DNA of 63,421 nucleotides, filler included, from Pelomyxa schiedti (Eukaryota > Protista > Evosea): assembly GCA_020536535.1 (NCBI GenBank). It is 22 parts of 22 records of this genome, joined end to end, with 100 filler letters (N's around TTAATTAATTAA, not from the genome) between each part and the next. Parts side by side here need not be neighbours in the genome. Positions count along the whole stretch, not along the records: positions 18,070 to 23,892 come from JAHLWZ010001468.1; 21 more parts are not named here. One strand, written 5' to 3'. Position 1 is the first letter of the stretch, and the number at the start of each line of letters is the position of its first letter. The notes beneath the pieces were generated by a model, which had not been told where the DNA came from, did not search any database, and saw only the letters and a program-made list of their open reading frames with translations. Positions 1,165 to 35,479 of the stretch are shown in pieces. Made by a program: the position numbers and the translations under genes.

Positions 1165-1437
1165 GACTCTGTGAGAGTTGCCTTTTTTTTTTATTTATGA
1201 AATATAAAATGTCATCTTGACGTCTTGGTTTGATTCCCCTGTGAGCATGCCACACAAACATTTCCCTGCGGGAGAGTTTTCATTCCCGACGATGGCGTTG
1301 CTGCCTGCAGCGTGACTACTTCCCTGCCTCCTAGCTTTTCCTATTTTCCATGGGAGATGTGGCGAAGTGTCATGGTTCCCCTGCCCCCAGGCATGGATGT
1401 CGAGAAAAAAAAATGAAACTCTTTCGGAGAAGACAAC

Positions 1438-7432: not shown

Positions 7433-8135
7433 ATGGGCGTAGGTTTTCAGGGGTGGAGCCTTCGTGCAATGGTCTTGTTGTTGTCGTCGTCGTGGTGGAA
7501 GACGTCTTCGTCGCAGCCCGCCATCATAAAAAACTCGAAAACAACTTCGAAGAAAATAATGATGATTACGGCACACGATGATGTACTTCATCTTGCACGC
7601 GACCAACTCGTTGCCTTGCTTTCCAGCACGGTGGCCACTCCGCATTGCCGTTGTGGGGCGGGCAGCCCAGCGAGGGTGCTCCCTGCCGCTGTCATCGCCC
7701 ACGAAATAGGGGCCAAGTGGGTGATGCACGTCGACAGGAGGGCCGTGATCAGGGGTCACTCCTCCACCACCACCAGCACCAGCGCCGCCACCGCCGTCGC
7801 ATCCAACGCCACCACCACCACCACGTACCACATCGTGTTCGTCGGCGTGTCACACACCTTGGGCGTCGTCGAGCGGGAGACGTGGTGCAGGCCAGGCGGC
7901 GGCGACGACTGCGAGTCGAGGGCGTACTTCAACGCGATAGTGTGGTTTGGGCACGGCGGCGCCGTGGTGAATGACTGCGAGACCAACAGGGCCCTCGGTT
8001 CTGGCAGCCGCAGCGCGCTTGCGATCGCGAATCTGCTGGCTGGTGGGGCTGTTGCGAGGAACGTGGCGGAGATTCCGACGAGCTCGCAGCTGGGCTATTG
8101 CCCAGAGACGCGGGTGTGCACAAATCTGGATCAGT
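7433..8135 (+). pseudogene. HPRCG-box family protein, interrupted by a palindromic element
   Basis: ARDQLVALLSS…HCRCGAGSPARVLPAAVIAHEIGAKWV…VGVSHTLGVV. Family-like sequence stops at …CTNLDQW, where the repeat array begins. Confidence 0.7.
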
Positions 8136-8300
8136 GGGCGGTGATTTTTTTCCCTACAAAAAGTGTATCATCACCGCCCAAAATCACCGCCCGGGCGGTG
8201 ATTTTGGGCGGTGATGATGCACTTTTTGCAGTCAAATCGGATCACCGCCCCGGGCGGTGGTTGAGCACATAAGCCAGTCAGTAAAATCACCACCCTGGGT
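8131..8300. mobile_element. Palindromic array of ATCACCGCCC/GGGCGGTGAT motifs; probable DNA-transposon end
   Basis: 72-bp palindrome at 8157-8228 (one mismatch), outer inverted arms at 8136-8145 and 8241-8250, about 8 motif copies. Begins TCAGTGGGCGG inside a coding region. Confidence 0.6.
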
Positions 8301-13758: not shown

Positions 13759-14121
13759 TGTACATTCAGTTCTTGCGGCTGTTTAAGAACGGTTAAATTG
13801 TTCAGTGACATTAAAGGAACCCAAACCTTCACATACAGCAGTCCAGAAGTCAAGGCACACCAAGCGAGCAGCCAGAACAGATTCGGGGGGTAAGTACTCA
13901 ACAATATGCACCAAAATATGGTGGGGAAGGTCTAAAATGCGTGTTCCTATTTGTGTTAATTGAGAAAGGGTTTGCTTGGCACTCGTACCAGAGACAATGG
14001 AAATGTTACTGAGTGTGTTTTNNNNNNNNNNNNNNNNNNNNNNNNNNNNNNNNNNNNNNNNNNNNTTAATTAATTAANNNNNNNNNNNNNNNNNNNNNNN
14101 NNNNNNNNNNNNNNNNNNNNN

Positions 14122-16078
14122 CAGTTGCTGTTGGATGGGAACAATGGAAAGTGCAAAGCTAGGGAGCCAACAACAGGTTTTCGCGGGGTCCAAGTGAGCC
14201 TTGAATGAGAACAGCAGTGTGCCAGTGGTGGCATCAGTGACCCTGTGGCTCACATCCAGCAGCGTTGTATTTTCAGCCTTTGTTGTTGGAGTGCAATTGC
14301 TGTATGGGCCTGCACGGCGCCTCTTGCTTGCAGGCTCAGATAAAGATGACAAGAAGTTGGGGTAAAGAAAGGTCAGTGTGCTGCTTACGATCAGGCCACC
14401 TCCAGTGATCACAACAGCGGTTCCAGGAGGGTGCTGAATGGAGCGGCACAAGCGAAGTACTGTTGATGAAGACACTTGGGGAAGCGCATGTTTGATGAGG
14501 GGGGTGGAAAGCTGGAAAACGGAAGTTTTGTAGCACAACAAGTCAGTGGTGCACATGTGAGTCTCATCAACAGCCTGCACAACAAGTTGGGAACTCCCAT
14601 TCCCACCACCATCACCATGACCAAGCCAAGTCAGCACTTGCCCTGTGTTGGCAAACAGAAGTTTTTCTTGGGATCTTTCAGCTGAGAATGGGAAGAAGTA
14701 CCACATGTGTAGCCTGTCAACGAGTGGTGCACAAAGAGTATCAAAAAAGACCGGGTTCTTGCACTGTATGTGAAAGCCACCCACAGGTAAAACTCCCTTC
14801 TGGCAATCAGTGAGCAGGGGGTCAGTGGCTCTCTTCAGGTCGACATGCATCACACAAAGGAAGTGCCCCTCCTCAGTGGTGTCTTCTTGTTCTTCGCTGC
14901 CATCTTTGTCATCATCTTTCCCACAATCAACATGAGCACCAGAGTCGTAACCTCTGAAGTAACTTCGACGGAAAATGATTTCGAGGGTGTCAGACTCACA
15001 GTTGTATTCACTTGGACCAAAGAACCTCACTGAGTAAACAATGCACCTCTTCCAAGGCAGGGACAGGATATTTGTGTACGGCCTCGGCCAGCAGTGATCC
15101 ACATAGAACTTTGGCTCTTCAGAAACCCAGTATTCAGATTTGTTCAAAAAAATGACCACCTGGTGCACACCAACAATCCACCTGCTGTTGAAACACATTG
15201 GTGGCTCAAAGGTAAACTCGTCATGAGTGTCTGTGCCCCCACGTGAGGTTCCACACACAGGAGTATTCAATAACATCAACACTAATACTATAACACTAAT
15301 AGGTAGGATTAATATATCAGTGCCACCACCCACCATGTCTGTTGAAGTAACTGGCCTCGGATTCCCCATCTACAGCTTGTATCACAACGGAATGTTCTTG
15401 TCCCTCAGCTGCGCAGAGCATTGGTGCCACGGAGCCGCCGCCGCCGCCGTTCACCAGCCGAGGAAGCTCAACAGACAGAGGCCCACCGCGCAACAGCCCA
15501 AGCGTGGCAGACAGTGAGACGAACAGCCGCCTGTCGCGCTCCAGATGCGCCTGGTGCTCGCCGCATCCCCTGCGCTCCTGCCTCTTCCCCTCGACCGACT
15601 TGAACCCAAGTGTGAGTATCACGTTCCTCTCGGGCCTCATGACCCACGCCTTCCCAATGCACTCAATCACGACCCACAATGGAAGCATCCCGACGTAACA
15701 AGGCGAAGTGGCGGGAGAAGAAGAAGAAGAAGAAGAAGAAGTGGCGGCGGTGGAGGAAGCAGAATTGTGGGATGATTCCACATGCACGACAAGAGGGGCA
15801 GAAGAAGATGACGAGGAGGAAGAGGGCGAAAGTTTCTCGGCGGCGGTGGCGGCACTACCCGGGAGCAAAAAAGACGGCGTGTTTGGGATTATGGGACTGG
15901 TGGTGCACTGTTGCCGGCGACTTGTTGCTTCTGTGCGGGTAGTGGCGGCGGCATGCAATAATGGGATGAGTTGGTCGGCAGCCTTAACGACACCGTTGGG
16001 GGTGGTCATCTCCCATGCCTTCAAGGTCCGACGTTGCTGCCACTGCAGTGACCGTGACTCCCGGTACCACATCATCAT
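14122..16078 (-). CDS. HPRCG-box family protein (split-box subtype), one intron; 3' end at gap
   Basis: KAADQLIPLLHAA…(Ser-rich insert)…MLPLWVVIECIGKAWVMRPERNV…FVSLSATLG. A ~52-nt GT-AG intron near 15282-15333 joins the two ORFs; body has CFNSRWIV and VTDATTGTLLFSF. Confidence 0.8.
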
Positions 16079-16145
16079 TGTGATTTTCTTGATAAAGATT
16101 CAAGGCAGTCCTCAGAGGAGTTCTTTGAGTTCGTCGTTGTTGCAC

Positions 16146-17600
16146 ATGAAAAGGGGCCCCGCCAACCAACGGGTTGTTGCGACCAACGGCCGCGCCGCCA
16201 ACCGAAGCTTGGGCGCTCGCGAACCCACAATTTCGGTTGGGATCCACCTTTCCGCCAACGCCCAGATGCTCGCGCTGGCGACATCGTGGCACCCACGATG
16301 CGGCGCATCCAGCCCCGCACGCCTCCTCCAGTCCCAACCCGCCGTTCTTCGTCAATTATGGGATTCCTGCGTCTCTTCGTTTGTTCCTCCTCCCCCGCAC
16401 ACATCAACACCAACACCAACAACAGCGCAATCACACCACCCAACAACGGCACCAACAGCAACAAAATCAACACAACCATCACAGTCACAGTGCTGTTGTT
16501 GCTGTTGGCCAACAACGTCATTGATTGGTGTGGTGGTGTCAGCTGAGCCACAGGGTGGTCTCACTGACAAGAGGCTCATCACGTTTGGTGTGTCAAGGGA
16601 ACTCGTCGGTGCGTTGGCTGGGTCTGTGTCTGTCAGCCCTGCGTGGTGTCAGCCAACCTCTTATTGGCGCGACCCGCCGTGCTGTGTTTACGCTGCTGGG
16701 AGTGGCATCCACGTGCTGGAGAAGAATTACTCGCTCAACCAGGAGTTCGCTGAATTCAGCATGGTGTTGCCCTCGGCAATCGAAGAGAACGGAAGAACAC
16801 CAGCCAACAAGGCGATGTGGCGGTGGGGCGGGGAGACATCACAGACAGCAGATGGAATGGTGAACAGCAAGTGGTGGGTGGTGTATTGTGACATGAGTCG
16901 CTGGCTGCCCTCAGAGGTGTGCATCTCCAGGATTTCTGGAAGCCATGGTGGCGAAAGGCTGGGCCCAAGTTCTGGTGGCACCGTGTGCAGATTGAAGGTT
17001 CCCTTTTTGATGGGGTTCTTCCTCAGCAAGTTCGACCCAGATGAAGCTGCAATGGTGACTGCAGACCACGCGAATGGGAGCCTAGTTATCTCTGTGATTG
17101 ATGTTGAAGCTACTTTCTCGACTGGTGCCGCAAAGCTTCTGAGTGAAACCAAGTGGTTGATTTATGATTACAACTGCTTTGTGCTCTCAGGCATGATCTT
17201 TCACCACCAAACAACAGGGTCAAGGAGCTTCGTCATTGTGACACATTCAACCATGCCGGATTTCGAAGAGTCAGAGGCATTCATTGTGGAAGAGAGCACC
17301 AGTTGTCAGAGGAAAATCGATGGTTACTTCAGAGAAGTTTCACAACTGAATGAGTCTCTGTTTTGTGTGTCACTTTCAGCAGAATATCAACTGTGGGAAG
17401 CGAGAGTGGCCAGGGAACAACCACTGAGGAGGGTCTCAATTTGCCATCATGATGTTGTCACTGCCGAGTGTGGTCTGTTGTTCCACAGGACACAAGGCAA
17501 TTCTGTTGTAAATGTGACTCATGCTGCAACAGGAATGCTCATCCTCTCTTTCACTGTTCCTCCTAAGTCCGCCACTCACATTTCTGGCTTTCTTCTTTGA
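16146..17600 (+). CDS. HPRCG-box family protein
   Basis: SANAQMLALATSWHPRCGASSPARLL…LRQLWD…FGVSRELVG…VNSKWWV…SQLNESLFCVS…THAATGMLILSF. Start taken at ATG 16146; the upstream part of the track ORF is antisense to the neighbouring gene. Confidence 0.85.
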   Translation: MKRGPANQRVVATNGRAANRSLGAREPTISVGIHLSANAQMLALATSWHPRCGASSPARLLQSQPAVLRQLWDSCVSSFVPPPPHTSTPTPTTAQSHHPTTAPTATKSTQPSQSQCCCCCWPTTSLIGVVVSAEPQGGLTDKRLITFGVSRELVGALAGSVSVSPAWCQPTSYWRDPPCCVYAAGSGIHVLEKNYSLNQEFAEFSMVLPSAIEENGRTPANKAMWRWGGETSQTADGMVNSKWWVVYCDMSRWLPSEVCISRISGSHGGERLGPSSGGTVCRLKVPFLMGFFLSKFDPDEAAMVTADHANGSLVISVIDVEATFSTGAAKLLSETKWLIYDYNCFVLSGMIFHHQTTGSRSFVIVTHSTMPDFEESEAFIVEESTSCQRKIDGYFREVSQLNESLFCVSLSAEYQLWEARVAREQPLRRVSICHHDVVTAECGLLFHRTQGNSVVNVTHAATGMLILSFTVPPKSATHISGFLL

Positions 17601-18127
17601 TTGAATTCATAAGTTTACACTGTTTTCTAAAATGGTTCCTCATGTGAAGGAGGGAGAAAGTGAGTCAGTGAACCAAGAGTAGTGTGAAAGTGATGACTTC
17701 CAGAAAAGGGAATCACAGAGTTGGCACTGAGCGACCCACAGATGTCGGAATGCAATGACACGTGATGCTTTGATCTCGTTACGAACCCCCATTCACAGTA
17801 GCGGGTTACACAGCTGAGGAGAGTGCCTGAGCAAAAAAAAAAGAGGGAGGAGTTTAAAGACCACACAATAGAGAAACCAGTAACAGAGGTGTCACCGACA
17901 GAGAATACAAGTGCCCCCGGGTCTCATCAGTGCGGCCTTCAACTCAAGGTACTTGAGTTTTTAGAGCTGNNNNNNNNNNNNNNNNNNNNNNNNNNNNNNN
18001 NNNNNNNNNNNNNTTAATTAATTAANNNNNNNNNNNNNNNNNNNNNNNNNNNNNNNNNNNNNNNNNNNNACAGCAGGGTGGAACCCACACAGCAACAAAA
18101 GCAGGTTTGTTTTTTCAATCTCAGCAC

Positions 18128-19318
18128 TCACAACAAGAACGAGAAAAGGTGACCAATTTGGTCCACTGCCAGTGAAGTTTCCAATGTGATAACTGTGGAA
18201 CCAGAATCATAATCAGTGACAACGATACAGTGATCATCCCTCATGTGAAACAGGAGCCCAGAATGCGCAATTGCCATCTGGCAGTGTTCAACGTGGTCCA
18301 CAATCCTCAGGGAACGTGAGGGACTGTTGCAATCCCAAATCTCCACTCTGTTTGGGCAGGACACACAAAAAAGCCTCTCGTTCAACTGTGACAGAGCAAC
18401 ACTGCCTTCAATGAAGTTGTAAACTGTTGTGTTGGTTGCATGTGAGCCTGAAGTGCACTCCCTGAACTGGAGGAGGATGAATTTTGAGCTGTAAACCATC
18501 ACCACGAAGGAACGCTCCTTGGATTCCGTCTGAAGAACAAGAACCTTTGGAATCGAGCATCTTTCGTGCATGGTTCTAGGAGGGAGTGTTATGGAAACAG
18601 CCTGTGTGCACTGAGAGCGAGAGTCGAACCACATCCGTGCAACGTTGAACACGCACAGCTCAATAACACGGGGAAGAATGGAAACTAACACAGCTTCGTC
18701 GTGGCGGCTCTGGTTCATGAATACATTCACCACATTCACCATTTCCGGCATTGGAACTCCAACTTGTGTCATGGTACCAAATCTGTTTTTCTCCAGCAAC
18801 AGGTTCCCAAGCACAACCCTCGTGTTCCTTGGATCATGTAAAACGAGCCACCTGTGGTTCATTGCACAGGGCCCCTCCACTATACTCTCTGGCCCGCAGC
18901 TGACTCCGCGTGGCGGGTTCTTGTTCCCAGAGGAGGAGGCACTGAACGTCAGCCTTCTCAGAACGCAGAGCGACTCCCTTGAGTAGTAGGAGTTTCTCTC
19001 GACTACATTCAAGTGATTGGCACCAATCATTTCGCAGGCGAACGAGTAGCTCGGCCTCTGGAGCGGTGGCGTCGGCACGACCCCGTGTGTGATTGGCGAC
19101 ACCCCAAACGTGAACAGGGTCGAGTGGTCGCGCGTTGGCACGGCCTCGACGCTGAAGTGCATTGTGGGACACACCGAGACCCACTCCCACACGAGCCGGG
19201 CGACCGAGGACGCAGACACGCCGTCCCACAATGGCAAAATGCGAGCGAGGGGCGTGTCGCCGCCGCACCTCGGGTGCCCCATCGTGCACAGTGCAACAAA
19301 CTGCGAGACGAGGTCCAT
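18128..19318 (-). CDS. HPRCG-box family protein, triplicated subfamily copy A
   Basis: Intronless 396-aa ORF: SQFVALCTMGHPRCGGDTPLARILP…SQLNERLFCVS…WDCN. Confidence 0.9.
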   Translation of the reverse strand: MDLVSQFVALCTMGHPRCGGDTPLARILPLWDGVSASSVARLVWEWVSVCPTMHFSVEAVPTRDHSTLFTFGVSPITHGVVPTPPLQRPSYSFACEMIGANHLNVVERNSYYSRESLCVLRRLTFSASSSGNKNPPRGVSCGPESIVEGPCAMNHRWLVLHDPRNTRVVLGNLLLEKNRFGTMTQVGVPMPEMVNVVNVFMNQSRHDEAVLVSILPRVIELCVFNVARMWFDSRSQCTQAVSITLPPRTMHERCSIPKVLVLQTESKERSFVVMVYSSKFILLQFRECTSGSHATNTTVYNFIEGSVALSQLNERLFCVSCPNRVEIWDCNSPSRSLRIVDHVEHCQMAIAHSGLLFHMRDDHCIVVTDYDSGSTVITLETSLAVDQIGHLFSFLL

Positions 19319-19365
19319 GGTTATTGGTGAAAGTTAAACTCCCACCCACATCAACTTATGCGAAA

Positions 19366-20751
19366 ATGGACAACGCTTGGTGCATCAGCGGCACAGGGTA
19401 TTGTCGGTGCGACACAGTGATCGATACACACGCACAGTTTCTGGCGCTTATGGGATCGAGCCACCCGCGGTGCGGCCTCGGGTGCGCCCCGTCCCTCGTG
19501 GCGCTATCGCGCGACGAGCCGTTCATGAGGTCCCTCTGGCTATCGTGGGCCGTCGACGGCGCCGTGTCCGCGGTGCTCATGACGGCGCTGTCACGCTCGA
19601 GCGAACAAGCCCACGTGGAGGTGCCGCTGCGGTTCTCGCCGCTCCTCGGCAGCGTCTCGATTATGGGTCGCGGGGTCAGGCTGTGGCCGCCCCACGACTC
19701 GTGGCGCTGGGTGGGCTCCACCCACTGCCTCGTTGCCCCACCCAGAGTTATGGGAATGGATCCTGCCCCATACCATTTCAAGAACATGACCCATGAGACT
19801 AACAGCAGTAGTAGTAGTGGTGCAAGTAGTGGGTGTGATGAAGTTCCAGGGTGCCTGTATCCATTCACAAATGGGAAGTGGCTGGTGTGGCCCACGGGGG
19901 ACAGAAGCGAGGCGGGCAGAACCGTGGCTGTCGCCGATTTGCAGAGCCTGATGCGGCATGAGGGTACAGTGCCAGTTGTTACTGAGTATTCGGCTGAGCA
20001 TGGCGCTGATATACGGGCAGGTGCATTTTCTGGTGCAGATGAGCTTGTGATTGCTGATCTCGTACCAAGTGGGCAGTGGACTGGCTCCACTATGTTCAGG
20101 GTGTTCGATCTGGCCAAATCCACCTGTGATGGGGAGTCACGTACTCTGCATCTCGTTGAATCCTTTGAGGTGCCTCTGAAGCTCTGTATAGTATCTCCCA
20201 TTTTGTTGATGAAGAAAATGGATGGCACCAGAGTCATCATTGCAGCGATGAGAAAGGAGGCATCACCATTCGAAAAAGATGAAATCCACTGGATTCGTGG
20301 GAATGGGGATTCAGTTGCAATCACGAGTGGTTGCATCAACCTGCACAAGGCAACAGAGTCGTTGTTCTGTATCATCAAGAAAGACACACATGAAGTCTGG
20401 GATGTGAACAACCCAAACGATCCCTCTGCAATTGGTGTGTGCAAAGCAGTCATCAAGAGTCCTGTGAACACTGCTCCAGCAGTAGCCACTGTCTCTGTCT
20501 CAGACAACAAACCCAAAACGGTGTTTGATATCTTCGAAATGGCGCTACCTCCAGTTCCAGTGGGAGGGTACATCCGTGGCTGGTTTCAGTGCTGTGGAAC
20601 ACTGATTTTCGTGCTTGTAAAAGCCAAAGTGAGTGTGGTGGACATGCTCACTGGTTATGTTCTTCTCAACGTTTTCCCACAAGAAGGCTGGGAATTTGAG
20701 CCACTGCATCGCTGGAGTTGTGTCCCATTGCCTGTATCCTCCTCTTTGTGA
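19366..20751 (+). CDS. HPRCG-box family protein
   Basis: AQFLALMGSSHPRCGLGCAPSLVAL…SLWLSW…FSPLLG…NGKWLV…ESLFCI…WDVNNP…VVDMLTGYVLLNV. Confidence 0.88.
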   Translation: MDNAWCISGTGYCRCDTVIDTHAQFLALMGSSHPRCGLGCAPSLVALSRDEPFMRSLWLSWAVDGAVSAVLMTALSRSSEQAHVEVPLRFSPLLGSVSIMGRGVRLWPPHDSWRWVGSTHCLVAPPRVMGMDPAPYHFKNMTHETNSSSSSGASSGCDEVPGCLYPFTNGKWLVWPTGDRSEAGRTVAVADLQSLMRHEGTVPVVTEYSAEHGADIRAGAFSGADELVIADLVPSGQWTGSTMFRVFDLAKSTCDGESRTLHLVESFEVPLKLCIVSPILLMKKMDGTRVIIAAMRKEASPFEKDEIHWIRGNGDSVAITSGCINLHKATESLFCIIKKDTHEVWDVNNPNDPSAIGVCKAVIKSPVNTAPAVATVSVSDNKPKTVFDIFEMALPPVPVGGYIRGWFQCCGTLIFVLVKAKVSVVDMLTGYVLLNVFPQEGWEFEPLHRWSCVPLPVSSSL

Positions 20752-20801
20752 AAAATTGTTGTACCACGGAGTTAGTGTGGTTGTACTAGGCACTGTGAAA
20801 C

Positions 20802-21080
20802 TGTTAGCTTCTGTGGGAAGAGAATAAAGCCCCACAGAGTGAGAGTGTAAAGGTTCTCTTGCTTGTTCTCGTGCTTGGGTTGCACGTGTTCAAAGGATAA
20901 TTAATTTGGTGCGGTTAGGTGCGGTTAGCTTCAAAGCCACGCTGTTGTCCAATTCTCAGTCAAGATTGCCTCAGAATCAATCACCACTGCAGTCCGCATT
21001 AGTGCGTTCTGTGTCTCATAAGATCGTCACTGCCTTATTCCAGTAATTCCATCAAGCCCGCATTGGATCTCGAGAGTCGA
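20802..21080. mobile_element. LTR-like terminal repeat fragment (TGTTAG end, hairpin)
   Basis: Near-identical to 50906-51203 apart from an indel after the hairpin. Confidence 0.8.
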
Positions 21081-21214
21081 CTCAGAGTTTCAGCTCAATT
21101 TTTTTTGCAGTTTGAAAACAACAGAGTGGCATGCTTGATTATGATAACAAAAAAAGGAGGGACATTTCCACAAAGAACGCTCCAACCAACATCACCACGT
21201 TATTCAGTGAGCAC

Positions 21215-22456
21215 TCACAACATGAACGAGAAAAGGCGACCAATTCTTTCCTCTGCAGCAAAGTGTGAAAGGTACAATGTGATAACAGTGGAACCAGAAT
21301 CATAATCAGTGACAACGATACAGTGATCATCCCTCATGTGGAACAGGAACCCACCATGTGCAATTGCCATCTTACAGGGGAAAATGTGCTCCACAATCCT
21401 CAGGGAACGCGAGGGACTGTTGCAATCCCAAATCTCCACTCTGTGTGGGCAGGACACACAGAAAAGCCTCTCGTTCAACTGTGACAGAGCAACACTGCCT
21501 TCAATGAAGTTGTAAATGGTTGTGTTGGTTGCATGTGAGCCTGAAGTGCACTCCCTGAACTGGAGGAGGATGAATTTTGAGTCATAAACCATCACAACGA
21601 AGGTCCGCTCCTTGGATTCGGTCTGAAGAACAAGAACCTTTGGAATGGAGCATGTTTTGGAGATGGCAGTAGTTGGTGCTGTTCTTGAAAGAGTCTGGGG
21701 GCACTGAAGGTCAAACCAGGTCATTGCAACGTTGAATATACACAGCTCAACAGCATCAGGCAGCATGGAAGCCAGCACAGCTTCGTCGTGGCAGCTCTGG
21801 TTCATGAATACATTCACCACATTCACCCTTTCCGGCATGCGCATTTCAAGTGGAGTTGTGCCACCCAACCCGCTTGGCTCCAGCAACAGGTTGCCGATCA
21901 CAACCTTCATGTTCCTTGTGTCATGCAAAACAAGCCACCTGTGGTTCATGGCACTGTGCCCCCCCCATGATTGGCTCCGCAACGCTGTGACATGGCCACT
22001 GATTCCACGTCGCGGTGGCTCCCTGTTCTCAGAGGAGGAGGCACTGAACGGCAGCCTCCTCAGAACCCGGAATGACTCCAAGTTCCCGTCTCTCTCGACG
22101 ACATTCAAGTGATTGGCACCAACTAGTTCCCAAGCGACGGAGGAACTCGGCCTCTGGAGTGGTGGTGTATGCACGACCCCGTGTGTGATTGGCGACACCC
22201 CAAACGTGAACAGCGTCGAGCGGTTGTACATCCGCACGGCCTCGACGCTGAAGTGCATTGTGGGACACACCGAGGCCCACTCCCAGACCAGCCGGGCGAC
22301 CGACGAGGCCGACACGCCGTCCCACAATGGCAAAACGCGAGCGAGGGGCGTGTCGCGGCCGCACCTCGAGTGTCCCATCGTGCACAGTGCAACAAACTGC
22401 AAAACAAAATCAATCGACGCAATCGTGTTGTGCCAACCGCCACGATTGTTATCCAT
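21215..22456 (-). CDS. HPRCG-box family protein, triplicated subfamily copy B
   Basis: LQFVALCTMGHSRCGRDTPLARVLP; closely similar to 18128-19318 and 22637-23839. Confidence 0.9.
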   Translation of the reverse strand: MDNNRGGWHNTIASIDFVLQFVALCTMGHSRCGRDTPLARVLPLWDGVSASSVARLVWEWASVCPTMHFSVEAVRMYNRSTLFTFGVSPITHGVVHTPPLQRPSSSVAWELVGANHLNVVERDGNLESFRVLRRLPFSASSSENREPPRRGISGHVTALRSQSWGGHSAMNHRWLVLHDTRNMKVVIGNLLLEPSGLGGTTPLEMRMPERVNVVNVFMNQSCHDEAVLASMLPDAVELCIFNVAMTWFDLQCPQTLSRTAPTTAISKTCSIPKVLVLQTESKERTFVVMVYDSKFILLQFRECTSGSHATNTTIYNFIEGSVALSQLNERLFCVSCPHRVEIWDCNSPSRSLRIVEHIFPCKMAIAHGGFLFHMRDDHCIVVTDYDSGSTVITLYLSHFAAEERIGRLFSFML

Positions 22457-22636
22457 CGTGTAAATCAAAAGGTGAAACCGTTTTTTTTCTTCCCAAGAGA
22501 AATCAACTGGGCGGTACAACCTGGCTGCTGAAGAAGGCATAATGCACAGTACAAACTGGGTGAGTTATAGTGCAAACAACAGCAGGGTGGAACCCACACA
22601 GCAACAAAAGCAGGTTTGTTTTTTCAATCTCAGCAC

Positions 22637-23839
22637 TCACAACAAGAACGAGAAAAGGTGACCAATTTGGTCCACTGCCAGTGAAGTTTCCAATGTGATC
22701 ACTGTGGAACCAGAATCGTAATCAGTGACAACGATGCAGTGATCATCCCTCATGTGAAACAGGAGTCCAGAATGCGCAATTGCCATCTGGCAGTGTTCAA
22801 CGTGGTCCACAATCCTCAGGGAACGCGAGGGACTGTTGCAATCCCAAATCTCCACTCTGTGTGGGCAGGAGACACAGAAAAGCCTCTTGTTCAACTGTGA
22901 CAGAGCAACACTGCCTTCAATGAAGTTGTAAACGGTTGTGTTGATTTCATGTGAGCCTGAAGTGCACTCCCTGAACTGGAGGAGGATGAATTTTGAGTCA
23001 TAAACCATCACAACGAAGGAACGCTCCTTGGATTCGGTCTGAAGAACAAGAACCTTTGGAATCGAGCAGGTTTTGGAGATGGTTCCAGGAGGTAGCCCGG
23101 TTCTCGAAGCAACCTGTGTGCACTGAAGGTCGAACCAGGTCATTGCAACGTTGAATATACACAGCTCAACAGCATCAGGCAGCATGGACGCCAACACAGC
23201 TTCGTCGTGGCGACTCTGGTTCATGAATACATTCACCACGTTCACCCTTTCTGGCATTGGAATTTCAAGGGGAGTTGTGGCACCCAAACCACTTGGCTCC
23301 AGCAACAGGTTCCCAATCACAACCCTTGTGTTCCTGGGATCATGCAAAACAAGCCACCTGTGGTTCATGGCACTGTACTCCCCTGATTGGGTCCACAACG
23401 AGGTTTCATATCCACAGTCACTGATCCCACGTGGCGGCTTCTTCTTGTTCTCAGCGGAATTGAACATCATCCTCCTCATGACGTGGAATGACCAGCATGT
23501 ATAAAACGCCCTCCTCTCTACCACATTCAAGTGATTGGCACCAATCATTTCACAAGCAGACGAGGAACTCGGCCTCTGAAGTGGTGGCGTCGGCACGACC
23601 CCGTGTGTGATTGGCGACACCCCAAACGTGAACAACTCCGAGTGTTTGTGCCTCGGCGCGGCCTCGACGCTGAAGTGCATTGTGGGACACCCCGAGACCC
23701 ACTCCCACACGAGCCGGGCGACCGAGGACGCAGACACGCCGTCCCACAATGGCAAAACGCGAGCGAGGGGTGTGTCGTGGCCGCACCTCGGGTGCCCCAT
23801 CGTGCACAGTGCAACAAACTGCGAAACAAGATTGACCAT
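22637..23839 (-). CDS. HPRCG-box family protein, triplicated subfamily copy C
   Basis: SQFVALCTMGHPRCGHDTPLARVLP; C-terminal peptide and 3' flank match copy A. Confidence 0.9.
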   Translation of the reverse strand: MVNLVSQFVALCTMGHPRCGHDTPLARVLPLWDGVSASSVARLVWEWVSGCPTMHFSVEAAPRHKHSELFTFGVSPITHGVVPTPPLQRPSSSSACEMIGANHLNVVERRAFYTCWSFHVMRRMMFNSAENKKKPPRGISDCGYETSLWTQSGEYSAMNHRWLVLHDPRNTRVVIGNLLLEPSGLGATTPLEIPMPERVNVVNVFMNQSRHDEAVLASMLPDAVELCIFNVAMTWFDLQCTQVASRTGLPPGTISKTCSIPKVLVLQTESKERSFVVMVYDSKFILLQFRECTSGSHEINTTVYNFIEGSVALSQLNKRLFCVSCPHRVEIWDCNSPSRSLRIVDHVEHCQMAIAHSGLLFHMRDDHCIVVTDYDSGSTVITLETSLAVDQIGHLFSFLL

Positions 23840-25276
23840 CCACAGACTGTGATTAGGTTTAGGCTGTTCGCTGAACAACTCCCTGATCGGTTNNNNNNNN
23901 NNNNNNNNNNNNNNNNNNNNNNNNNNNNNNNNNNNNTTAATTAATTAANNNNNNNNNNNNNNNNNNNNNNNNNNNNNNNNNNNNNNNNNNNNCTTGGCTG
24001 GCGGACTTTTTAAAGAAGAGAAAGGAAAAGCCTACTGCGGAAGCTGCCACCAAAAATTGTTTTGTTAGGGAGGAAAAAAACAAACACTACATTTCTGTCT
24101 CTTTTTTTTTTTGTAAACCACCAACCTTTACGTCCTGTGATTTGGTTTGGTGCTGTGAATCCAATTCGGTCTCTCTCAGCTTACGACGAGTTCCAACACA
24201 GGAAAAACAAAAACTTGGGCTTGCCCAACGAGGAGACCGCCAGGAATTCTTGGTTCCTCCACGCCCCCTTGCCCATAATTCAGTTTGGAGCACTCAACAC
24301 TGTGCGGAACGGAAGGGAAATTCGGCTCTTTTCTCGGTTGGTTGAAGTGCATAAAGTGACTTTACTTCCTCGAAATCCACAAATTTGTTTGTTTTAATGC
24401 GAAAAGTACACTGCGTGCGGAACGTATTCATCGAGATGTAATGCCTCGGCATTCGTCTTAGAGGTCTGATTCACCTGCAATGGGTGAATTTGGCTTCACC
24501 AAACCCTCCTGCCGCGTGACACCGTTGCCTGCGAAGGACTACGTGTTGTGGGGCACTCCTCAAAAAACTCTTGTGAAGCACGCAACCACAACAACCAACC
24601 AAATTTTTTTACCAGTTTTTCACCCTTGAGGAAACAAATACATGGTTGTCTTGGGACAAGGCTATAAAACACGTGGCACAGGGTTCTAAACTCCACATCA
24701 CAGTAATGGTCACGTTGTAGGGAGACTTCGTGGGCCAACAGCCTCTTTGGTATGACGCAGGGCCTTTAGGCATTACGCCAAGGCCAAGGAAAAGTCGAAT
24801 CTACCAACCAAACACAAACGTACTACCAGCCGAGGCCCCAACTTGGTGTTCCAAGCTTGTCCCACAATCCCGGTGAAATAGAAATTAGCGCCGTGTGTTG
24901 ATTTCGATCTCGAACAGAAACCGTGGTGCTCAGTTGATGTTGTTCATCGAGTTATTGAAAACAGAATTTCAAATCCCTTTCACTGCTACCCCGTGCTGTG
25001 TGAGGATACTCAACAAAATTCATCGAATTACTTCGAATTCTTTCGCGTAGTCCTTCAACAACGCGACGCGGTCACCACATTTTTTGGTTTTTGTTAGCTT
25101 TCATTAATATACAATTCAAATAGGGAAAGGTTGGTGTGTTACAAACACAACCATGTGGCCTGAATAGTGCTGGGGGNNNNNNNNNNNNNNNNNNNNNNNN
25201 NNNNNNNNNNNNNNNNNNNNTTAATTAATTAANNNNNNNNNNNNNNNNNNNNNNNNNNNNNNNNNNNNNNNNNNNN

Positions 25277-27156
25277 GCGCCACTCTCTCTGTCAGTGCCT
25301 TGATTGAGACCAGTGTCCCACCACTCCCATGAACTTCAGCCGGCTGGAGGTTGTATTGCACTGATGCAAAATCATTGTCATCAAGGATCTCCTTGAGTGT
25401 GTGGATGTTGATGTGGTGGGTGATGTTCTTTGCTGAGAGGCATGGTGTCATTGCACCTGATGACACAAGATGTGTGCACTCACAGAGTGTTTCTTTCAGC
25501 TTCTTGTCTGCTGCAATCATGCCCACAATGTCGCTGGACTTGGCGATTTCGTGTGCTCTCGTGATTGTTCTTTTGTGTGTTGACATGCACACCTCGAGGC
25601 ACTCTTTGTGTTCTTTCACATTTGATTCTGTGGTTTTGGTTTGTTGATTTGTCTGAAAAGCAGAAAGAGAGGCAACATACTGATAAACAATGAAAGCAAA
25701 GTGCAGTCTGAGACCACTTTGCTGACCTGCTGTTTCATGGAACACAAGATTGCGTTGGTCTCTGTCTCAACATCGGCTACAATTGACTGAAGAGTTTTGT
25801 CAGACTCCAAAATGGAAGCCTCACATTTTTTAATTGCTTCACGTTCGAGTTCAACTGTTTCCTCAAGCTTGGAAATAGAACCTAGCACACAGTAGAAAGG
25901 TTGACCCAAACTCCACACTGGTTTTTGAATTACACACTTAAAATGGATTCACGGACTTGAGTGCCAATTTCATCAAGTGGGACACACTTGTGAGTGGTAT
26001 GCAAAGAACTGACGTGGCACAAGTAACACATTGGTGTATGGTCTTCCAAGCAGAACAGATCAAGATCCTTCTTTGGGTGTTTGGGGNNNNNNNNNNNNNN
26101 NNNNNNNNNNNNNNNNNNNNNNNNNNNNNNNNNNNNNNNNNNNNNNNNNNNNNNNNNNNNNNNNNNNNNNNNNNNNNNNNNNNNNNAATTTCATCAAGTG
26201 GGACACACTTGTGAGTGGTATGCAAAGAACTGACGTGGCACAAGTAACACATTGGTGTATGGTCTTCCAAGCAGAACAGATCAAGATCCTTCTTTGGGTG
26301 TTTGGGGCATTTGTGTTCCTCAGTCAAAACGGGTGATGTGGTGATTGGTTCCCCCTGAGTGTGATGAATAATTGTATTCTTCACAATTAATGAACCTTGT
26401 GAGACTTGAGTCCTGGTGCTTTGTGACGGATGTGGAAGCATGATTCACAGAACAACATCCCTTTGCACCGCAGACAAGTCATCGTTGCTTTCTTGGCAAC
26501 TGAGTTCTCATCCATGCAATACCCAAGCATGCACAATCCTTCCTCTGGCTCCTGACAAAAAGAAAGTAAACGGCAACAAGGGAGACACACACCTCCTCTT
26601 TTTCTTTCATCACCTGGAGCAGGTAATCACGAGTGGTGACATCAGGGATGAGCATTGACACATCACTCACCCTCAATGATTTTGCACCACACCCCAAAAC
26701 TGGGCATTGAACACTCACACCAGTATTAAGTGCTTCACATGTATTATCGCTTGACTTGTGGGTGGTGGTCCCTGTTGTGCCTCAGCTATTGCTTTGTTTT
26801 TTTTTACATAAATATAAATATATATGCATATGTGTTCACGCCGTCTGACAAGCGTAGAATATGAAGATGGAACCTGGTTGAGAGCTGCCACTCGCGGTTG
26901 TGGACAGAGACACCGAGGACACGGACAGCGGGGCGCGCTCACGCAACATGGTGAGTGTTGCCACTGACGCGATGTGGAGGTAGCACCCACGGCACACGAC
27001 GTGCCCACACGACGACGACGACGAGGGTGCGGAGGAGGCAGCTGATTTGGATGCGGGGAACAACACCGGATTGGTTATGGGACACCCCAGCCCGCCGCAC
27101 ACACTGCACTGTGGGACAGGGGGAGGAGGGACAGCGCGCGGCTCCGATGTAATCAT
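25277..27156 (-). CDS. TRIM-like RING/B-box/B-box/coiled-coil protein 1 (multi-exon, 3'-truncated)
   Basis: RING CSVC…CGHVVCRGC…CPVLGC; B-box 1 CMLGYC…CLRCKGMLFCESCFHIRH; B-box 2 CPKHPKKDLDLFCLEDHTPMCYLC…H..HKC; then coiled coil. Confidence 0.8.
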
Positions 27157-27546
27157 ATGAGTAAATAATTCAATTTTCTGGTATAGATTTGGCAAAGTTC
27201 ACCTGTAAAAAAAAATTCGAAAATTCATCAGTTTTAATTTTTTTTTGGTCCTTTTCTCATGGGGGACGGAAGGGTTCAGGAAGATCGTTTGGGCGTCTTC
27301 ATAAATCACCTGCACCCGATGAGACCGGCACATTCTCACCAAACACAACAACGGCGGAGACTCCAGTTAGGAAGTGTGCCTCAATGAATGAAAAAAACAT
27401 TCCACAAAAAGGAAACAAAAATTGACACCAGATTGGCGTTCTGTTTCCCCCCCGTTGTAACCAGAAAATTGAATTATTTACTCATCAGTTTGATCTTTGA
27501 TTATGATTGGGTTGGTTCGTTTTAGGTGAAGCAGTGTGGTGTCACG

Positions 27547-29902
27547 TCACGAAGACAAAGGAGCCTCCAGGACCAGGAAGTCATGCACGTGGCTCGTATC
27601 CCAGCACCTTGTGTATCCGTACTCCTCTGGGTTCCCAAAAGAACAAGGCTGTTTCCTCACGGCTGTGAAACCACCATCACACACTCCATTACCATTGGGA
27701 GTCAAGATTGGCACCTCAAACCCACCAAACGAACTCCTGGATGGCACAGTTGGGACCCCATGGGTAATTACCCACTCGTGGCCTTTGTACCAGGCCTCCT
27801 GCTTGCCCAGCATCTCACACGTGGATATCAGCAGGGTTGCATCCTCTGTGCTTCTGGGGTGGAACCACTGCAGACCAAGTGTAAGGGGCAGATCCTTGTA
27901 CTCTGCTATTGGCTTGCTGCTATCACTCAGAATTATCACCACTGTGCGGCCACAGCTTGTGTACTGCTTGAATCCAAGTGGGGCTACTTGCTGCATCTGA
28001 AGTGTATGAAGCTGTTGCTTGAGGGAATCGTTCTCTGTTGTCAACTGGGTTTGCTTTGTTTCCAGCTGTGCTTTCATTTCTTTGAAGACGATCCTTTCTT
28101 TTTCAAGGGTGTCTTCAAGTTGCACCACTCTATCCTTCAGTGCCTTCATTGTAACACATGTTCCACCACTCCTTTCAGCCAGCTGAAGGTTGTATTGCAC
28201 TGATGCAAAGTCATTGTCATCAAGTACCTCCTTGAGTGCGTGGGTGTTGATGTGGTGGTGATGTTCTTTGCTGAGAAGCATGGTGTCATTGCACCTGATG
28301 ACACAAGATGTGTGCACTCACAGAGTATTTCCTTCAGCTTCTTTTCTGCTGCAATCAGGCTCACAACGTCGCTGGACTTGGCGATTTCGTGTGCTCTCGT
28401 GATTATTCTTTGGTGTGTTGACATGCACACCTCGAGGCACTCTTTGTGTTCTTTCACATGTGCTTCTGTTTGTTTGGTTTGAGTGGTGAGTCAAAGCTGA
28501 AGGGAGAATAGAAAAGAGACACCAATCAAAGAGGAAATCATTGTGCAATCTGCAACCACTTCACTGGTCTTCTGTTTCATGGAATGCAAGATCGAGTTGG
28601 TCTCTGTCTCAACATTGGAGGCAATTGACTGAAGAGTTTTTTCAGACTCCAAAATGGAAGCCTCACATTTTTTAATTGCATCACGTTCAAGTGCCACCAC
28701 CTCCTCAAGTTTGGGTGTCACACCTGCATTCATTTTGAGTCAAACTTCCCGCATTTTTGTTTGGGCATAAAATACACACTCAAAATGGACTCGCGGATCT
28801 GAGGGCCAATTTCATCAAGTGGGACACACTTGTGAGTGGAGTGAGCCGAACTGAATGCACACAGTGAACATATTGGATCCCTTTCCTCCAAGCAGAACAG
28901 ATCAAGATCCTTCTTTGGGTGTTTGGGGCATTTGTGTTCCTCAGTCAAAACGGGTGATGTGGTGATTGGTTCCCCCTGAGTGTGATGAATAATTGTATTC
29001 TTCACAATTAATGAACCTTGTGAGACTTTATTCCAGGTGCTTTGTGATGGATGTGGAAGCACGACTCACAGAACAACATCCCTTTGCACCGCAGACAAGT
29101 CATCGTTGCTTTCTTGGCAACTGAGTTCTCATCCATGCAATACCCAAGCATGCACAATCCCTCCTCTGGCTCCTAGAGGACAAAAAGGTAGTAAGTGACT
29201 GGCTTATTTACTGAACATGCGTGACACACACCTCCTCTTTTTCTTTCATCACCTGGAGCAGGTGATCACGAGTTGTGACATCAGGGATGAGCATTGACAC
29301 ATCACTCACCCTCAATGATGTCACCCCACACCCCAAAACTGGGCATTTAACACTCACACCTGCAGCATTCAGTACCTCACATGTATTGCTTGATCTGTGG
29401 GTGGTAGTCCCTGTTGCAGGTTACTTTTTATTTCATTTATTAATAAAAAGTCATAAGCCCATTGCCTCTTGTTTAAAAAAGGCTATTTAACAAGAGCTGA
29501 CACTTGTCTGTAACTACAGTAATATTTGAAGAAAAAACCTGGCAGAGATAATGGTGTTGATGATACAGATGCCATCTCGCCAGAATGTTGTTGGTCTTCA
29601 TTGTTACAATTATGAGTACTGCCTCCTGACAGAGAGACTGAGGGCATGCACAGTGGGGCACGCTCATGCAACATCATTAGTGTGGCCACCGATGCGATGT
29701 GGCGGTAGCACCCACGGCACACAACGTGCCCACACGACGACGACGAAGACGACGGTGTGGAGGAGGAGGAGGAGGAGGAGGCAGCTGATTTGGACGCGGG
29801 GAACAACACTGGATCGGTTATGGGACACCCCAGCCCGCCGCACACACTGCACTGTGGCAAAGGAGGTACAGCGCCCTGTTGTTGTGGTGACGGAGATGCC
29901 AT
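27547..29902 (-). CDS. TRIM-like RING/B-box/B-box/coiled-coil protein 2 with unknown C-terminal domain
   Basis: Same motifs as paralogue 1; C-terminal ~140 aa (GFKQYTSCGRTVVIILSD…CWDTSHVHDFLVLEAP) not recognised. Confidence 0.82.
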
Positions 29903-29987
29903 TATTTGTTTTACAGTTTGATCAGGGTATTAGGGGAAAAAGGGATGCATACACCCACACCGACGCGATACAGAAGCGTATTAAGTT

Positions 29988-30090
29988 CACCGGAGTGCAA
30001 GTCAAAGGAGAAAAACAGAATTTGTTAGTGAGTAAGGCAGCGTGAAGCTGCCCGATTTTGCCGGGAGTTGTTGGGCGGTTGGCGCGGGGG
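29988..30090 (-). repeat. Dispersed ~110 bp element, copy 2
   Basis: Reverse-complement match to 2721-2838; ends 85 bp upstream of the TRIM-like 2 ATG. Confidence 0.85.
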
Positions 30091-31889
30091 CAGCGCGTTG
30101 AATCGGGTCTCGCGGCGGCTGCGCGGCCTTGAACATAAGTGGGTTTGATTGTTCAGTGGCTTGTGACTTTTGATTATCGTCAACCACCAAAAAAATCGAT
30201 GAGGGGTGGCCATGCCAGCAGTGGACAAGCAGTACTCTCCCATTTGCTTTTTGTTGTCTTCTTCACCACAACTGTTCTATTTGCTTGTTTATTATTTTAT
30301 GTATCGGAGTGGTGTTTTTGATTTTATTATTTAAATAATTATAATGTATGAACTTCTTTATAAATAATTTTAATTACCAGTTCTTTTTTCCCCATTCCAC
30401 ATTACACCAGTATTTATGGCAGCTTTCCACCAGTATGTGGCTTCTTCTTTCTTCGTTTTCTCACGTAGGATAATTTAGGTGCCGGACGTGGTGTCTGTAA
30501 TTCCAGCTGGCTAGGTAACTTCCTTCTGTATTTTATTATACTGGCACGGTGGTATGTAGTTTTTTTTTTTATAGCTGCGCCAGATGGCAACCGCCAATGT
30601 ACATCCCTCCCCCCCTCGTCATCCCACTCAAAGTACTAGGTACCGGACTGGGCACCAGGCCGAATTCCTCACACTCACTCTCACCATCCTCACACCTCTA
30701 TGTACAAGCCTGAAGTCGAAAATCGACTTCAGGCAAAAAAAAAAAGTTTTCTGCCCTTAAGTCCTTGGATACAAAATCGTGCCACGTTATTTTAAATCCA
30801 CATTTTGGAGAGAAGTGGGTGTTGTGGGTACGCATGAGAGTGAAAGAGTAAGAAGGGAAATTTGGGCCTTGTTGTGCACCCGTCACAGTAAAGTGTGGTC
30901 GTTGGAAAGCGGAAAAGCGGGAGAGTGGGTTAGGGAAGTTGGGGTTGGTCAGTCCGGTACTACAACTGTTCAGCAATGACAAAAAAAGGAGAAGGATATG
31001 CGTCAGTGGTTGTCATGTACAGGAGCGTGATTAATGGTTTGGCCATTTCTAAGAGTCGAATTCTTGCCATGAACACTGACGAGCCAATGCTGTGTAGCTC
31101 TGCTGGCGTTGGGTCATGAAAATATCGAATAACAGTTTCCCTCATCACCTCGGTCTGCTGATTCTCCACCTTGGTTTTCAGGGTCTCCTTCACTCCTTGC
31201 TTGCATTGCCACTTTTCTGTGCAGCTTTGTACTTACCCCAAAGATACATACAGGTTCATTTTCTCCTTCTCAGTCCTTTTGCTCTTCTCCCTCTTGTGTT
31301 TGCTTGAAATTTCACTATCCAACGACAACCTAGCTTGCAGGACATGGGCATGGCCTGCAAGATCAGCTGTTCAGCTCTCTGCATGTTCCACTCCACACAC
31401 AAGATGCCCTTACAGTGCCTGCATTTCTGAAACTTTGCGAGTATGCTTATCAGCACAAGCCAATCACTCTGTTTGTGCTGGATGTTGTCTGGGACTGGCA
31501 TGGTTACTTCTCTCCCTTCTTACAGGGGTCTCAATGGCAATGCCTTGAGGACTGCTTTGGATTTTTGATCTCCATTGGAGTTCCCTCAGGTTCCACCCAC
31601 GAATCTGTAGTGGTGCAGTCAAGAAGATTTAACTCACGAGAACAATGGTCAGAATACAGTGCTGATTTGTTTCCTCAGGGAATTCCAACAGGGGTGCCCA
31701 ACACTGTGCCTGCTGATTTTTCAGTTTTCAAGTCCACTGAAATTGCATCCATTTCGAAAGCACTTCCTCCTTCACTTGGTGGAACTCATTACTCTCTACA
31801 CCTTCAACTGTGTTCCCTGCATTTGGTTCAGGCTCTTCAAAAGTGTGTATTTCTGCTTTATACTGTTCTGCCTCTTCATTATTACAATC

Positions 31890-31956
31890 TGTTAGCTTCT
31901 GTGGGCTTGAGAATAAGCCCCACAGAGTAAGAAAATGAGTGAAGTGAAGAATAAAG
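31890..31956. mobile_element. LTR-like terminus fragment (TGTTAG + hairpin)
   Basis: TGTTAGCTTCTGTGGG…CCCACAGAG, shared with 20802, 39135 and 50906. Confidence 0.7.
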
Positions 31957-32330
31957 GGCTTGGTCTCTAGGGCCAGGGCAAAACACTTGGTGCCTCGGGG
32001 GCACGAGGCTGCAGAAGGGCTTGCCACCTGCAGCATCTTTCCCCACATGCACTCTGACACCTGGCGGCATAAATGCACGGTCCGTGGCATCTACTGGCAT
32101 CAGCAGTAACCAACAAAGCTGTGGCGACATGGTTTTTGATAGGGCAGAAAGGGCTTGGTCTCTAGGGCCAGGGCGAAACACTTGGTGCCTCGGGGGCACG
32201 AGGCTGCAGAAGGGCTTGCCACCTGCAGCATCTTTCCCCGCATGCACTCTCACTTCGTTCGCACATTTTTGGGTGGTTTCCCCTTTATTTCTATGTGGAA
32301 ACTGCATGGCTGTGGTATCACTTGCCGAAG
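31953..32330 (-). mobile_element. Decayed RT/RNase H relic with internal 103-bp direct duplication
   Basis: Reverse complement of ~50530-50810 (encodes VTADAS). 31953-32055 is duplicated at 32148-32250. Confidence 0.55.
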
Positions 32331-32794
32331 ATGACATGATTGCTCCAACTCAGTGAATTCATGGAAGTACACAGTGCTGAGGTTAAGTGGGTGCAGGTGG
32401 AAGTAAAGCCTGACATTGCACTCTGTTTGTCAGCCCTTCTGGCATCCAGGGTCCTGGAGTGGGGTTTTTCATAAAAAGGGACTGTACCTTGGTAATAGAT
32501 TTAGTAGGCAGGTCAGCCTACACCTAAATAATATCTGGTGATGACAGGCTTTCATCTCAGCAGCCACACCAATGGCTGGTGGAGATTCTGAAAGTCAGAG
32601 GGCCCTAATGCCAACACTCCCATGTAAATCAGTGTGAATGCGGAAAAGGACCTAGAGATGTGCATCTGTGTTTTTAATTGTTTTTAATTTTTTATGTTGA
32701 GGTAGCACCAGTCTCAGTTTTGTTTTGTTTTGTTTTGTTTTGTTCCTTTTTGACTTGGCTTTTTGGCTAAAAAGGGTGATAATGGGGATTGTTG

Positions 32795-35073: not shown

Positions 35074-35135
35074 TCACTGAATTGATAGGGGAAAAAAAAA
35101 CAAAGTAGAGAAGATTCTAATCAACAATTCGGTTC

Positions 35136-35479
35136 ATGTCGGCCGGTGACCCCAAGAGGGAAGACTGGGTTCGATTGATACGGTGCAACTACGCAAGCGA
35201 TCAATTCATAGCTCTCGCCGTCGCTGCGTGGGCCTCACAACCCAAAACCACCAACACGGGTGCCGCTCAAACACCCCTCATGCGCGATGCTGAACCACCA
35301 TCACAGTCAGGAGGCGTACGACAGCCACCATCGCCACCATCGTCACCATCATCATCATCACCACCACCAGCAGCAGCAGCGGCGAGTATGCTTCCCATGT
35401 ACTTGATGGAATACATCGGGAGGGAGTGGGTGACGCCGACGGCTGTGTACGTGTGCAGGGTGTCACCAATTTATGCGAG
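35136..35479 (+). CDS. HPRCG-box family protein (split-box subtype), N-terminus only
   Basis: YASDQFIALAVAAW…(Ser/Pro insert)…MLPMYLMEYIGREWV. Confidence 0.72.

What the first reader, a model, noticed from the sequence alone, without database searches (positions are those of the whole stretch)
18128..23839. Hypervariable loops inside a near-identical framework in three tandem paralogues
Copies A, B and C are almost identical over long stretches but differ sharply in short windows. Examples: AVPTRDHSTLF / AVRMYNRSTLF / AAPRHKHSELF; VERNSYYSRESLCV / VERDGNLESFRV / VERRAFYTCWSFHV; GVSCGPESIVEGPC / GISGHVTALRSQSWGGHS / GISDCGYETSLWTQSGEYS. Concentrated substitutions and indels between predicted beta-strands resemble the diversifying binding surfaces of immune-type receptors (inference).
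Basis: partly seen in the sequence, partly recalled or inferred. Interest (0 to 1): 0.72.

Follow-up and report, generated by a model that had tools for sequence, protein, structure and literature searches.

The report
Amoeba propeller family with hypervariable face
Three neighbouring genes of the amoeba Pelomyxa schiedti belong to a large unnamed family of predicted seven-bladed propeller proteins whose loops differ sharply, mostly on one predicted face, likely because DNA exchange between copies keeps the framework alike while the loops escape it; the apparent signal of positive selection is not robust, and a binding or immune role is untested.

Summary
In detail: all nine quoted peptides are present, and variation is clustered in 8 windows (39-55% amino-acid identity) within a 92-96% identical framework. 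The DNA is a 5,823-nt Pelomyxa schiedti scaffold. A, B and C belong to an unnamed family of at least 204 clusters; all 20 named proteins checked are P. schiedti. AlphaFold2 (pLDDT 87) gives a 50-residue helical box with no database match plus a seven-bladed propeller. Variable sites favour the top face (55/120 vs 41/152; topology inferred), and a fourth copy varies in the same windows. Allowing for that, omega is 0.8 (about 0.5-2), and simulations without any omega>1 reproduce the signal in 55% of runs. Best reading: islands of divergence in copies homogenised by gene conversion, likely kept apart by selection on a binding face. Substrate adaptor or immune function is inferred only. The scan noted loop-variable propellers before, in bacteria and phages. 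New variant of a known kind.

The parts
18128..19318 (-). Copy A, 396 aa uninterrupted ORF: N-terminal helical box plus predicted seven-bladed beta-propeller
19169..19318 (-). N-terminal box of A (residues 1-50, three predicted helices, HPRCG motif); conserved family-wide, no database match
19366..20751 (+). Gene X, distant member of the same family on the opposite strand, head to head with A
   Evidence: E 2.7e-44 to the family profile
21215..22456 (-). Copy B, 413 aa from the ATG at 22456 (ORF is open to 22540)
22637..23839 (-). Copy C, 400 aa; the NCBI model Pelo_17756 fuses it with B, probably wrongly
   Evidence: contig of RNA run X3 runs to a separate stop
19118..19141 (-). Window 1 in A (B 22214-22237, C 23636-23659): b-c loop of blade 1, top face, no indel among A/B/C
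19025..19048 (-). Window 2 in A (B 22121-22144, C 23543-23566): end of d-a loop and strand 2a, top face, no indel
18866..18997 (-).
18752..18790 (-). Window 4 in A (B 21839-21877, C 23258-23296): c-d loop and outer strand of blade 3 (bottom or rim), no indel
18662..18688 (-). Window 5 in A (B 21749-21775, C 23168-23194): b-c hairpin of blade 4, top face, no indel
18560..18637 (-). Window 6 in A (B 21653-21724, C 23069-23143): c-d loop, outer strand and d-a loop after blade 4
18278..18292 (-). Window 7 in A (B 21371-21385, C 22787-22801): d-a loop into blade 7, top face; A and C identical, B 53% nt
18158..18181 (-). Window 8 in A (B 21245-21274, C 22667-22690): d-a loop before the closing strand, top face; at least four versions exist among copies
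18070..18196 (-). 127 nt (last 22 codons, stop, 58 nt of flank) identical between A and C up to the scaffold edge; recent exchange or collapsed repeat
17970..18069 (.). Artificial spacer, left edge of the 5,823-nt scaffold
23893..23992 (.). Artificial spacer, right edge of the scaffold

Best explanation
A, B and C are close copies in a large Pelomyxa schiedti family of predicted box-plus-seven-bladed-propeller proteins, and their variable windows are likely islands of divergence: gene conversion between copies would keep the framework alike while loops, mostly on the predicted top face, escape it, likely because selection keeps different binding surfaces. Shown: clustering, 3-fold deeper synonymous divergence in the windows, omega near 1 there against 0.07-0.2 in the framework, paralogue-derived bases in younger copies, recurrence of the same windows in a fourth copy. 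Predicted: the fold and the face. Inferred: gene conversion as the cause (about 0.7), selection maintaining the islands (about 0.55), cytosolic substrate-adaptor function with the conserved box docking on a shared partner such as a cullin ligase (about 0.35), defence against microbes (about 0.25).
For: Synonymous change at amino-acid-invariant columns: 20/39 in windows vs 41/228 outside (p=4e-5), rising with local amino-acid variability from 20/128 to 12/22. A two-state model with its own time scale fits best (windows 3.3x deeper, omega 0.80; equal depth rejected, 2dL 15.4; 8.95 without codons near gaps). Equal-depth positive selection never gave the synonymous excess (0 of 150 in each of two settings). 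All 11 framework differences between the X3 RNA contig and C carry a base found in A or B, while the two have 0 differences over 23300-23691, so the windows do not look like current mutation hot spots. The odd-one-out copy switches along the gene (59 runs vs 86 expected, 0 of 5,000). P0002 differs from C at 25/112 window and 14/257 framework residues (p=4e-6). Five of 8 windows have no indel among A/B/C yet show the synonymous excess (7/11 vs 40/233), so indel barriers alone do not explain them. Fold: pLDDT 86.9, pTM 0.84; best matches are propellers, Z 15-17 over residues 52-396. Top-zone enrichment. Theory of such islands: passages of PMC3728101.
Against: Only three DNA sequences. The mosaic test on synonymous sites alone is not significant (38 runs vs 40, p=0.34). 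Structural zones drawn without the codon data show only a weak synonymous excess (top 18/64, bottom 22/107). The model-derived windows use the synonymous data, so tests on them are partly circular; the fitted null itself reached the observed gap in only 2 of 150 runs. The same windows are the gappiest, most variable positions in 97 distant members (entropy 3.15 vs 2.65), as tolerant loops would be. No omega>1 class is detected once depth varies (2dL 0.0). Three bottom loops also vary. The face assignment comes from DSSP strands and recalled propeller topology, not coordinates; strand 2d rests on one bridge residue. The box matches no F-box or SOCS-box profile. Short-read contigs can be chimeric between copies.
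Confidence: 0.55

Rival explanations
1. Neutral version: the windows are tolerant surface loops evolving at omega about 1; once they hold a few substitutions or indels they stop pairing and escape conversion, with no selection for different specificities.
For: Omega 0.80-0.85 in windows, no omega>1 class; windows coincide with family-wide gappy positions; PMC3728101 passages say small clusters of substitutions or indels can themselves cut conversion.
Against: Five windows of 5-13 codons have no indel and sit between near-identical flanks; top loops vary more than bottom loops as units (p=0.008) and the a-b loops hardly vary; the young C/P0002 pair already differs mainly in top zones (31/120 vs 13/148).
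Confidence: 0.27
2. One reading: classical positive selection (omega>1) on loop codons against a uniform synonymous clock, as in immune receptors.
For: M1a/M2a 2dL 9.39 (p=0.009), M7/M8 10.48 (p=0.005), omega 3.3 at 14% of sites, with top-ranked sites in the windows. The interval for omega in the quoted windows reaches about 2.
Against: Uniform synonymous depth is rejected; a null without omega>1 gives 2dL of at least 9.39 in 55% of 60 simulations, median omega 3.2; the abstract of 10.1101/174839 describes this false-positive route.
Confidence: 0.1
3. A dedicated diversifier (retroelement-like or cassette-based) rewrites the windows.
For: Block-like multi-base differences in very short windows (window 7: 53% nt identity over 15 nt).
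Against: No template or silent cassette in the window by self-BLAST; bases at variable sites are not adenine-biased (C 96, G 92, A 90, T 65); C and the X3 contig are identical over 23300-23691. The rest of the genome could not be searched.
Confidence: 0.04
4. The mosaic is mainly an assembly artefact of collapsed paralogues.
For: A and C share 127 identical nt up to the scaffold edge; summed depth over C is several times that of gene X, and no listed contig spans the stretch; a second scaffold holds a 99% identical C-B block.
Against: Each window type is on its own contig in two DNA runs of one sample; the C-to-B junction is in two scaffolds; chimerism could shuffle windows between copies but cannot create them or their synonymous excess.
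Confidence: 0.04

Closest known systems
Podospora anserina HNWD genes (het-d, het-e; PMC1805685, abstract and section headings seen)
   Same: Paralogue family with beta-propeller domains under concerted evolution; variable residues grouped at the interaction surface.
   Different: HNWD homogenises repeats within and between genes and has four sites per repeat under positive selection; here whole genes are homogenised, blades are not alike, windows are 5-50 codons with indels, omega>1 is not shown, and no NACHT domain is present.
Expanded F-box families of Caenorhabditis and plants (PMC8120010, passages seen; Thomas 2006 seen only as cited there)
   Same: Hundreds of tandemly duplicated genes with a conserved short N-terminal module and a variable C-terminal binding domain; weak Pfam hit to the KIB1-4 propeller.
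   Different: The N-terminal box is not an F-box by Pfam or hhalign; adaptor binding is unknown; positive selection is not shown here.
Islands of divergence under gene conversion (Teshima and Innan model, as described in passages of PMC3728101)
   Same: Short exonic regions with raised divergence amid homogenised sequence, some without indels.
   Different: Here eight islands map largely to one predicted propeller face in a multi-copy family rather than a gene pair.
Seven-bladed beta-propellers of the PDB (integrin alpha, WD40 proteins, methylamine dehydrogenase heavy chain)
   Same: Fold of residues 52-396, Z 15-17, rmsd 4-5 A over about 260-310 residues.
   Different: Identity about 4-16%, no match stands above the rest, no WD40 Pfam hit; the fold gives no function.

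Membership tests
F-box propeller substrate receptors (SCF) | F-box motif at the N terminus | tested here: not met
   No F-box Pfam hit in 104 members or 22 box fragments at E up to 10; hhalign probability 0.3% against the window's true F-box; no PDB sequence match. Sequence level only.
F-box propeller substrate receptors (SCF) | F-box-like fold of the N-terminal helices | tested here: inconclusive
   Three helices predicted but fold searches covered residues 52-396 only.
F-box propeller substrate receptors (SCF) | C-terminal beta-propeller | tested here: met
   (prediction)
F-box propeller substrate receptors (SCF) | Binding to Skp1 and Cul1 | not testable with these tools
   Needs a pull-down or a prediction with the host's own adaptors.
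SOCS/VHL-box or DCAF cullin receptors | SOCS-box profile match or WDxR motif (motif definitions recalled) | tested here: not met
   No such Pfam hit; the conserved strand motif reads IWDCN. Degenerate boxes can escape these profiles.
KIB1-4 beta-propeller (PF03478) | Score above the curated cut-off | tested here: inconclusive
   25.0 and 23.6 bits against 27.4 for A and C, none for B; 4 of 104 members hit.
Fungal HNWD receptors | NACHT domain and N-terminal effector | tested here: not met
   396 residues are accounted for by box and propeller; no Pfam hit.
Fungal HNWD receptors | Near-identical repeats within the propeller | tested here: not met
   Repeats found are between copies, none within a copy.
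Fungal HNWD receptors | Concerted evolution among paralogues | tested here: inconclusive
   11 of 11 paralogue-derived bases and switching odd-one-out support it; the synonymous-only runs test does not (p=0.34).
Fungal HNWD receptors | Omega>1 at interaction-surface codons | tested here: inconclusive
   Significant only under a uniform synonymous rate; absent when depth varies; three sequences give little power.
Diversity-generating retroelement | Template repeat and adenine-specific variation (features recalled) | tested here: not met
   No template in the window; no adenine bias. The whole genome was not available.

The most novel reading that the evidence does not exclude
Pelomyxa, an amoeba filled with prokaryotic endosymbionts, runs its own intracellular recognition repertoire: more than 200 box-plus-propeller genes (over 1% of its proteome) whose undescribed N-terminal box docks on a ubiquitin ligase while gene conversion reshuffles the binding loops among copies to track symbiont or pathogen proteins.
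Probability: 0.2. Interest if true: 0.8.

Novelty: new variant of a known kind. Interest (0 to 1): 0.52.

Why it matters
The family is large, apparently confined to one amoeba among the collections searched, and has an N-terminal module that matches nothing in Pfam or the PDB. If it is a receptor or ligase-adaptor repertoire, it gives a concrete handle on how a symbiont-packed protist recognises foreign proteins. The case also shows that the standard M7/M8 test gives a false-looking positive on such paralogues, because conversion makes synonymous divergence uneven along the gene.

Tried and rejected
Single-sequence AlphaFold2 failed (pLDDT 39); replaced by a 104-row alignment. No whole genome is held, so close copies could not be counted or analysed at DNA level. 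The search for shorter homologues found none among 517 candidates. The ESM Atlas gave no result. A PDB sequence search with the family profile gave nothing below E 0.04. One partition fit for the three quoted windows diverged and was redone as a profile. One complex prediction of the box (residues 1-56) with stand-in Skp1 and Elongin C-like proteins from viral contigs returned no answer (score 0.02, alignments not used); it is no evidence either way. Viral fold matches (BTB-WD40 proteins of giant viruses, TM about 0.5) reflect the common fold and were not taken as ancestry. No contig of RNA runs X3 or X4 covers A; this is not evidence of silence. Fusion of C and B into one protein (NCBI model) was rejected as likely over-joining. 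A diversity-generating retroelement was rejected.
Full report
Setting. The window is 22 short scaffolds joined by 21 linker spacers, plus one plain N gap. Copies A (18128-19318), B (21215-22456) and C (22637-23839), all on the minus strand, share one 5,823-nt piece; a distant paralogue X (19366-20751, plus) lies between A and B. A named protein, Pelomyxa schiedti Pelo_17756, is C and B fused and sits on a contig of 5,823 nt, which identifies the organism. Each copy is an uninterrupted ORF, although the genome averages 7.43 introns per gene (passage of PMC8887013).

Observation. All quoted peptides are present. 123 of 404 columns vary and are clustered (118 runs vs 172; 0 of 20,000 shuffles). 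A two-state model finds 8 windows, with 39-55% amino-acid identity against 92-96% in the framework. Contigs of DNA runs X1 and X2 (one sample) and RNA run X3 cover the main windows of each copy with 0-5 differences. C-type and B-type contigs in X3 suggest, but do not show, expression.

Family. A profile of 7 close sequences hits 204 clusters at 50% identity (E up to 0.001). All 20 named proteins looked up are P. schiedti (P0002-P0011; 10 of 10 further representatives); the other hits were not named. That is at least 1% of 19,876 predicted proteins. Nine stretches on 5 of the 22 pieces of this window hit the family profile. Close copies beyond A/B/C: P0002 (83% to C), P0011 (a 99% identical C-B block on another scaffold plus a further C terminus) and P0001 (C-type windows, different C terminus).

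Structure. With 104 aligned sequences AlphaFold2 gives pLDDT 86.9 and pTM 0.84: three helices (3-48) and 28 strand positions. All top structural matches are propellers over residues 52-396. Variable residues: top zone 55/120, bottom zone 41/152 (p=0.0014); loop residues alone 31/67 vs 33/99 (p=0.11) for A/B/C and 40/67 vs 35/99 (p=0.0025) with five sequences; loops as units p=0.008. Exceptions are the c-d loops of blades 2-4. The box enters the propeller at the opposite end. A crude hydropathy scan shows no N-terminal hydrophobic stretch, so a cytosolic location is inferred. The box is found in 127 of 156 stored proteins and matches no Pfam family of cullin adaptors or PDB sequence.

Selection. 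But synonymous change at invariant residues is 20/39 in windows vs 41/228 outside. A model that lets windows be deeper fits far better (lnL -2648.6 vs -2687.7): depth 3.3x, omega 0.80; equal depth is rejected; adding an omega>1 class gains nothing, and omega in the quoted windows is about 0.85, range about 0.5-2. Simulated without omega>1, 55% of 60 data sets give a test statistic as large as observed; simulated with equal depth and positive selection, 0 of 150 in each of two settings give the synonymous excess. The abstract of 10.1101/174839 describes this false-positive route.

Mechanism. Deeper windows are what gene conversion predicts if it homogenises the framework and spares some segments (passages of PMC3728101; the Teshima and Innan paper itself was not read). 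Support: the odd-one-out copy switches along the gene; all 11 framework differences between the X3 contig and C carry an A or B base, while the two are identical over 23300-23691. Against: the synonymous-only runs test is flat (p=0.34), a-priori structural zones show only 18/64 vs 22/107, and short-read contigs may be chimeric. Selection rather than drift as the keeper of the islands is favoured by five indel-free windows, by top-face enrichment, and by P0002 differing from C in the same windows (25/112 vs 14/257 after skipping a 13-residue gap taken as a false intron). It is weakened by the windows being the family's tolerant positions. I put selection-kept islands at 0.55 and the neutral version at 0.27.

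Function. Inferred from anatomy only: conserved docking module, variable top face, hundreds of copies. This works like the expanded F-box families of nematodes (passages of PMC8120010) and like Podospora HNWD genes (abstract of PMC1805685), but it fails the membership tests for both. Partner and targets are unknown.

Novelty. Searches that found no description of the family: Pelomyxa schiedti plus genome (listing), Pelomyxa with gene family, expansion, F-box (listing), a related motif word recalled from memory, Mastigamoeba gene-family search. PMC8887013 has 0 hits for gene family, ubiquitin or F-box in its main text; PMC8136499 has 0 for propeller, F-box or cullin. Supplements were not opened. 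Earlier notes of this scan report loop-variable propellers in bacteria and phages, at blade level, and nothing on this genome or sequence. Verdict: real, a new variant of a known kind, interest 0.52.

Noticed in passing
window 7133-8269 (+), 15699-17597 (+), 41177-41500 (-), 46340-47443 (+), 47317-48642 (+): Further distant members of the same box-plus-propeller family (E 9e-5 to 5e-75 to the family profile); the family occupies 5 of 22 pieces.
   Followed up: partly
window 13786-14019 (-): A canonical F-box (PF12937 and PF00646 above cut-off), showing that ordinary F-boxes of this genome are detectable.
   Followed up: partly
window 1-1194 (-): Ankyrin-repeat ORF (weak Pfam hits) whose N terminus loosely recalls the box (not significant, iE 18); the box may be used with other binding domains.
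   Followed up: partly
window 25277-35479 and 48743-50382: Another paralogue group (coiled-coil-like, no solid Pfam hit); a 1,640-nt stretch at 32739-34378 is 98% identical to 48743-50382 on another piece, a haplotype or recent duplicate.
   Followed up: no
window 20795-21080 and 50899-51203: Dispersed repeat of about 300 nt between X and B, 91% identical to a copy elsewhere, with summed depth up to 4,300 against 96 over gene X in run X1; a possible mobile element.
   Followed up: no
window 61434-63419 (+): ORF with tandem 36-residue repeats resembling SEL1 units (label recalled); a second such ORF at 35581-36336.
   Followed up: no
window 4909-6264 (-): MORN-repeat ORF (E 7e-26).
   Followed up: no
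P0005, P0011 and other stored proteins: NCBI gene models often fuse neighbouring family members (19 of 127 box-bearing proteins carry two boxes) or join them to unrelated domains; family size is probably undercounted.
   Followed up: partly
L144, L145, L148, L149 and L151: Very large viral contigs carry Skp1 genes that appear to be interrupted by introns, and one giant-virus bin carries an Elongin C-like gene.
   Followed up: no
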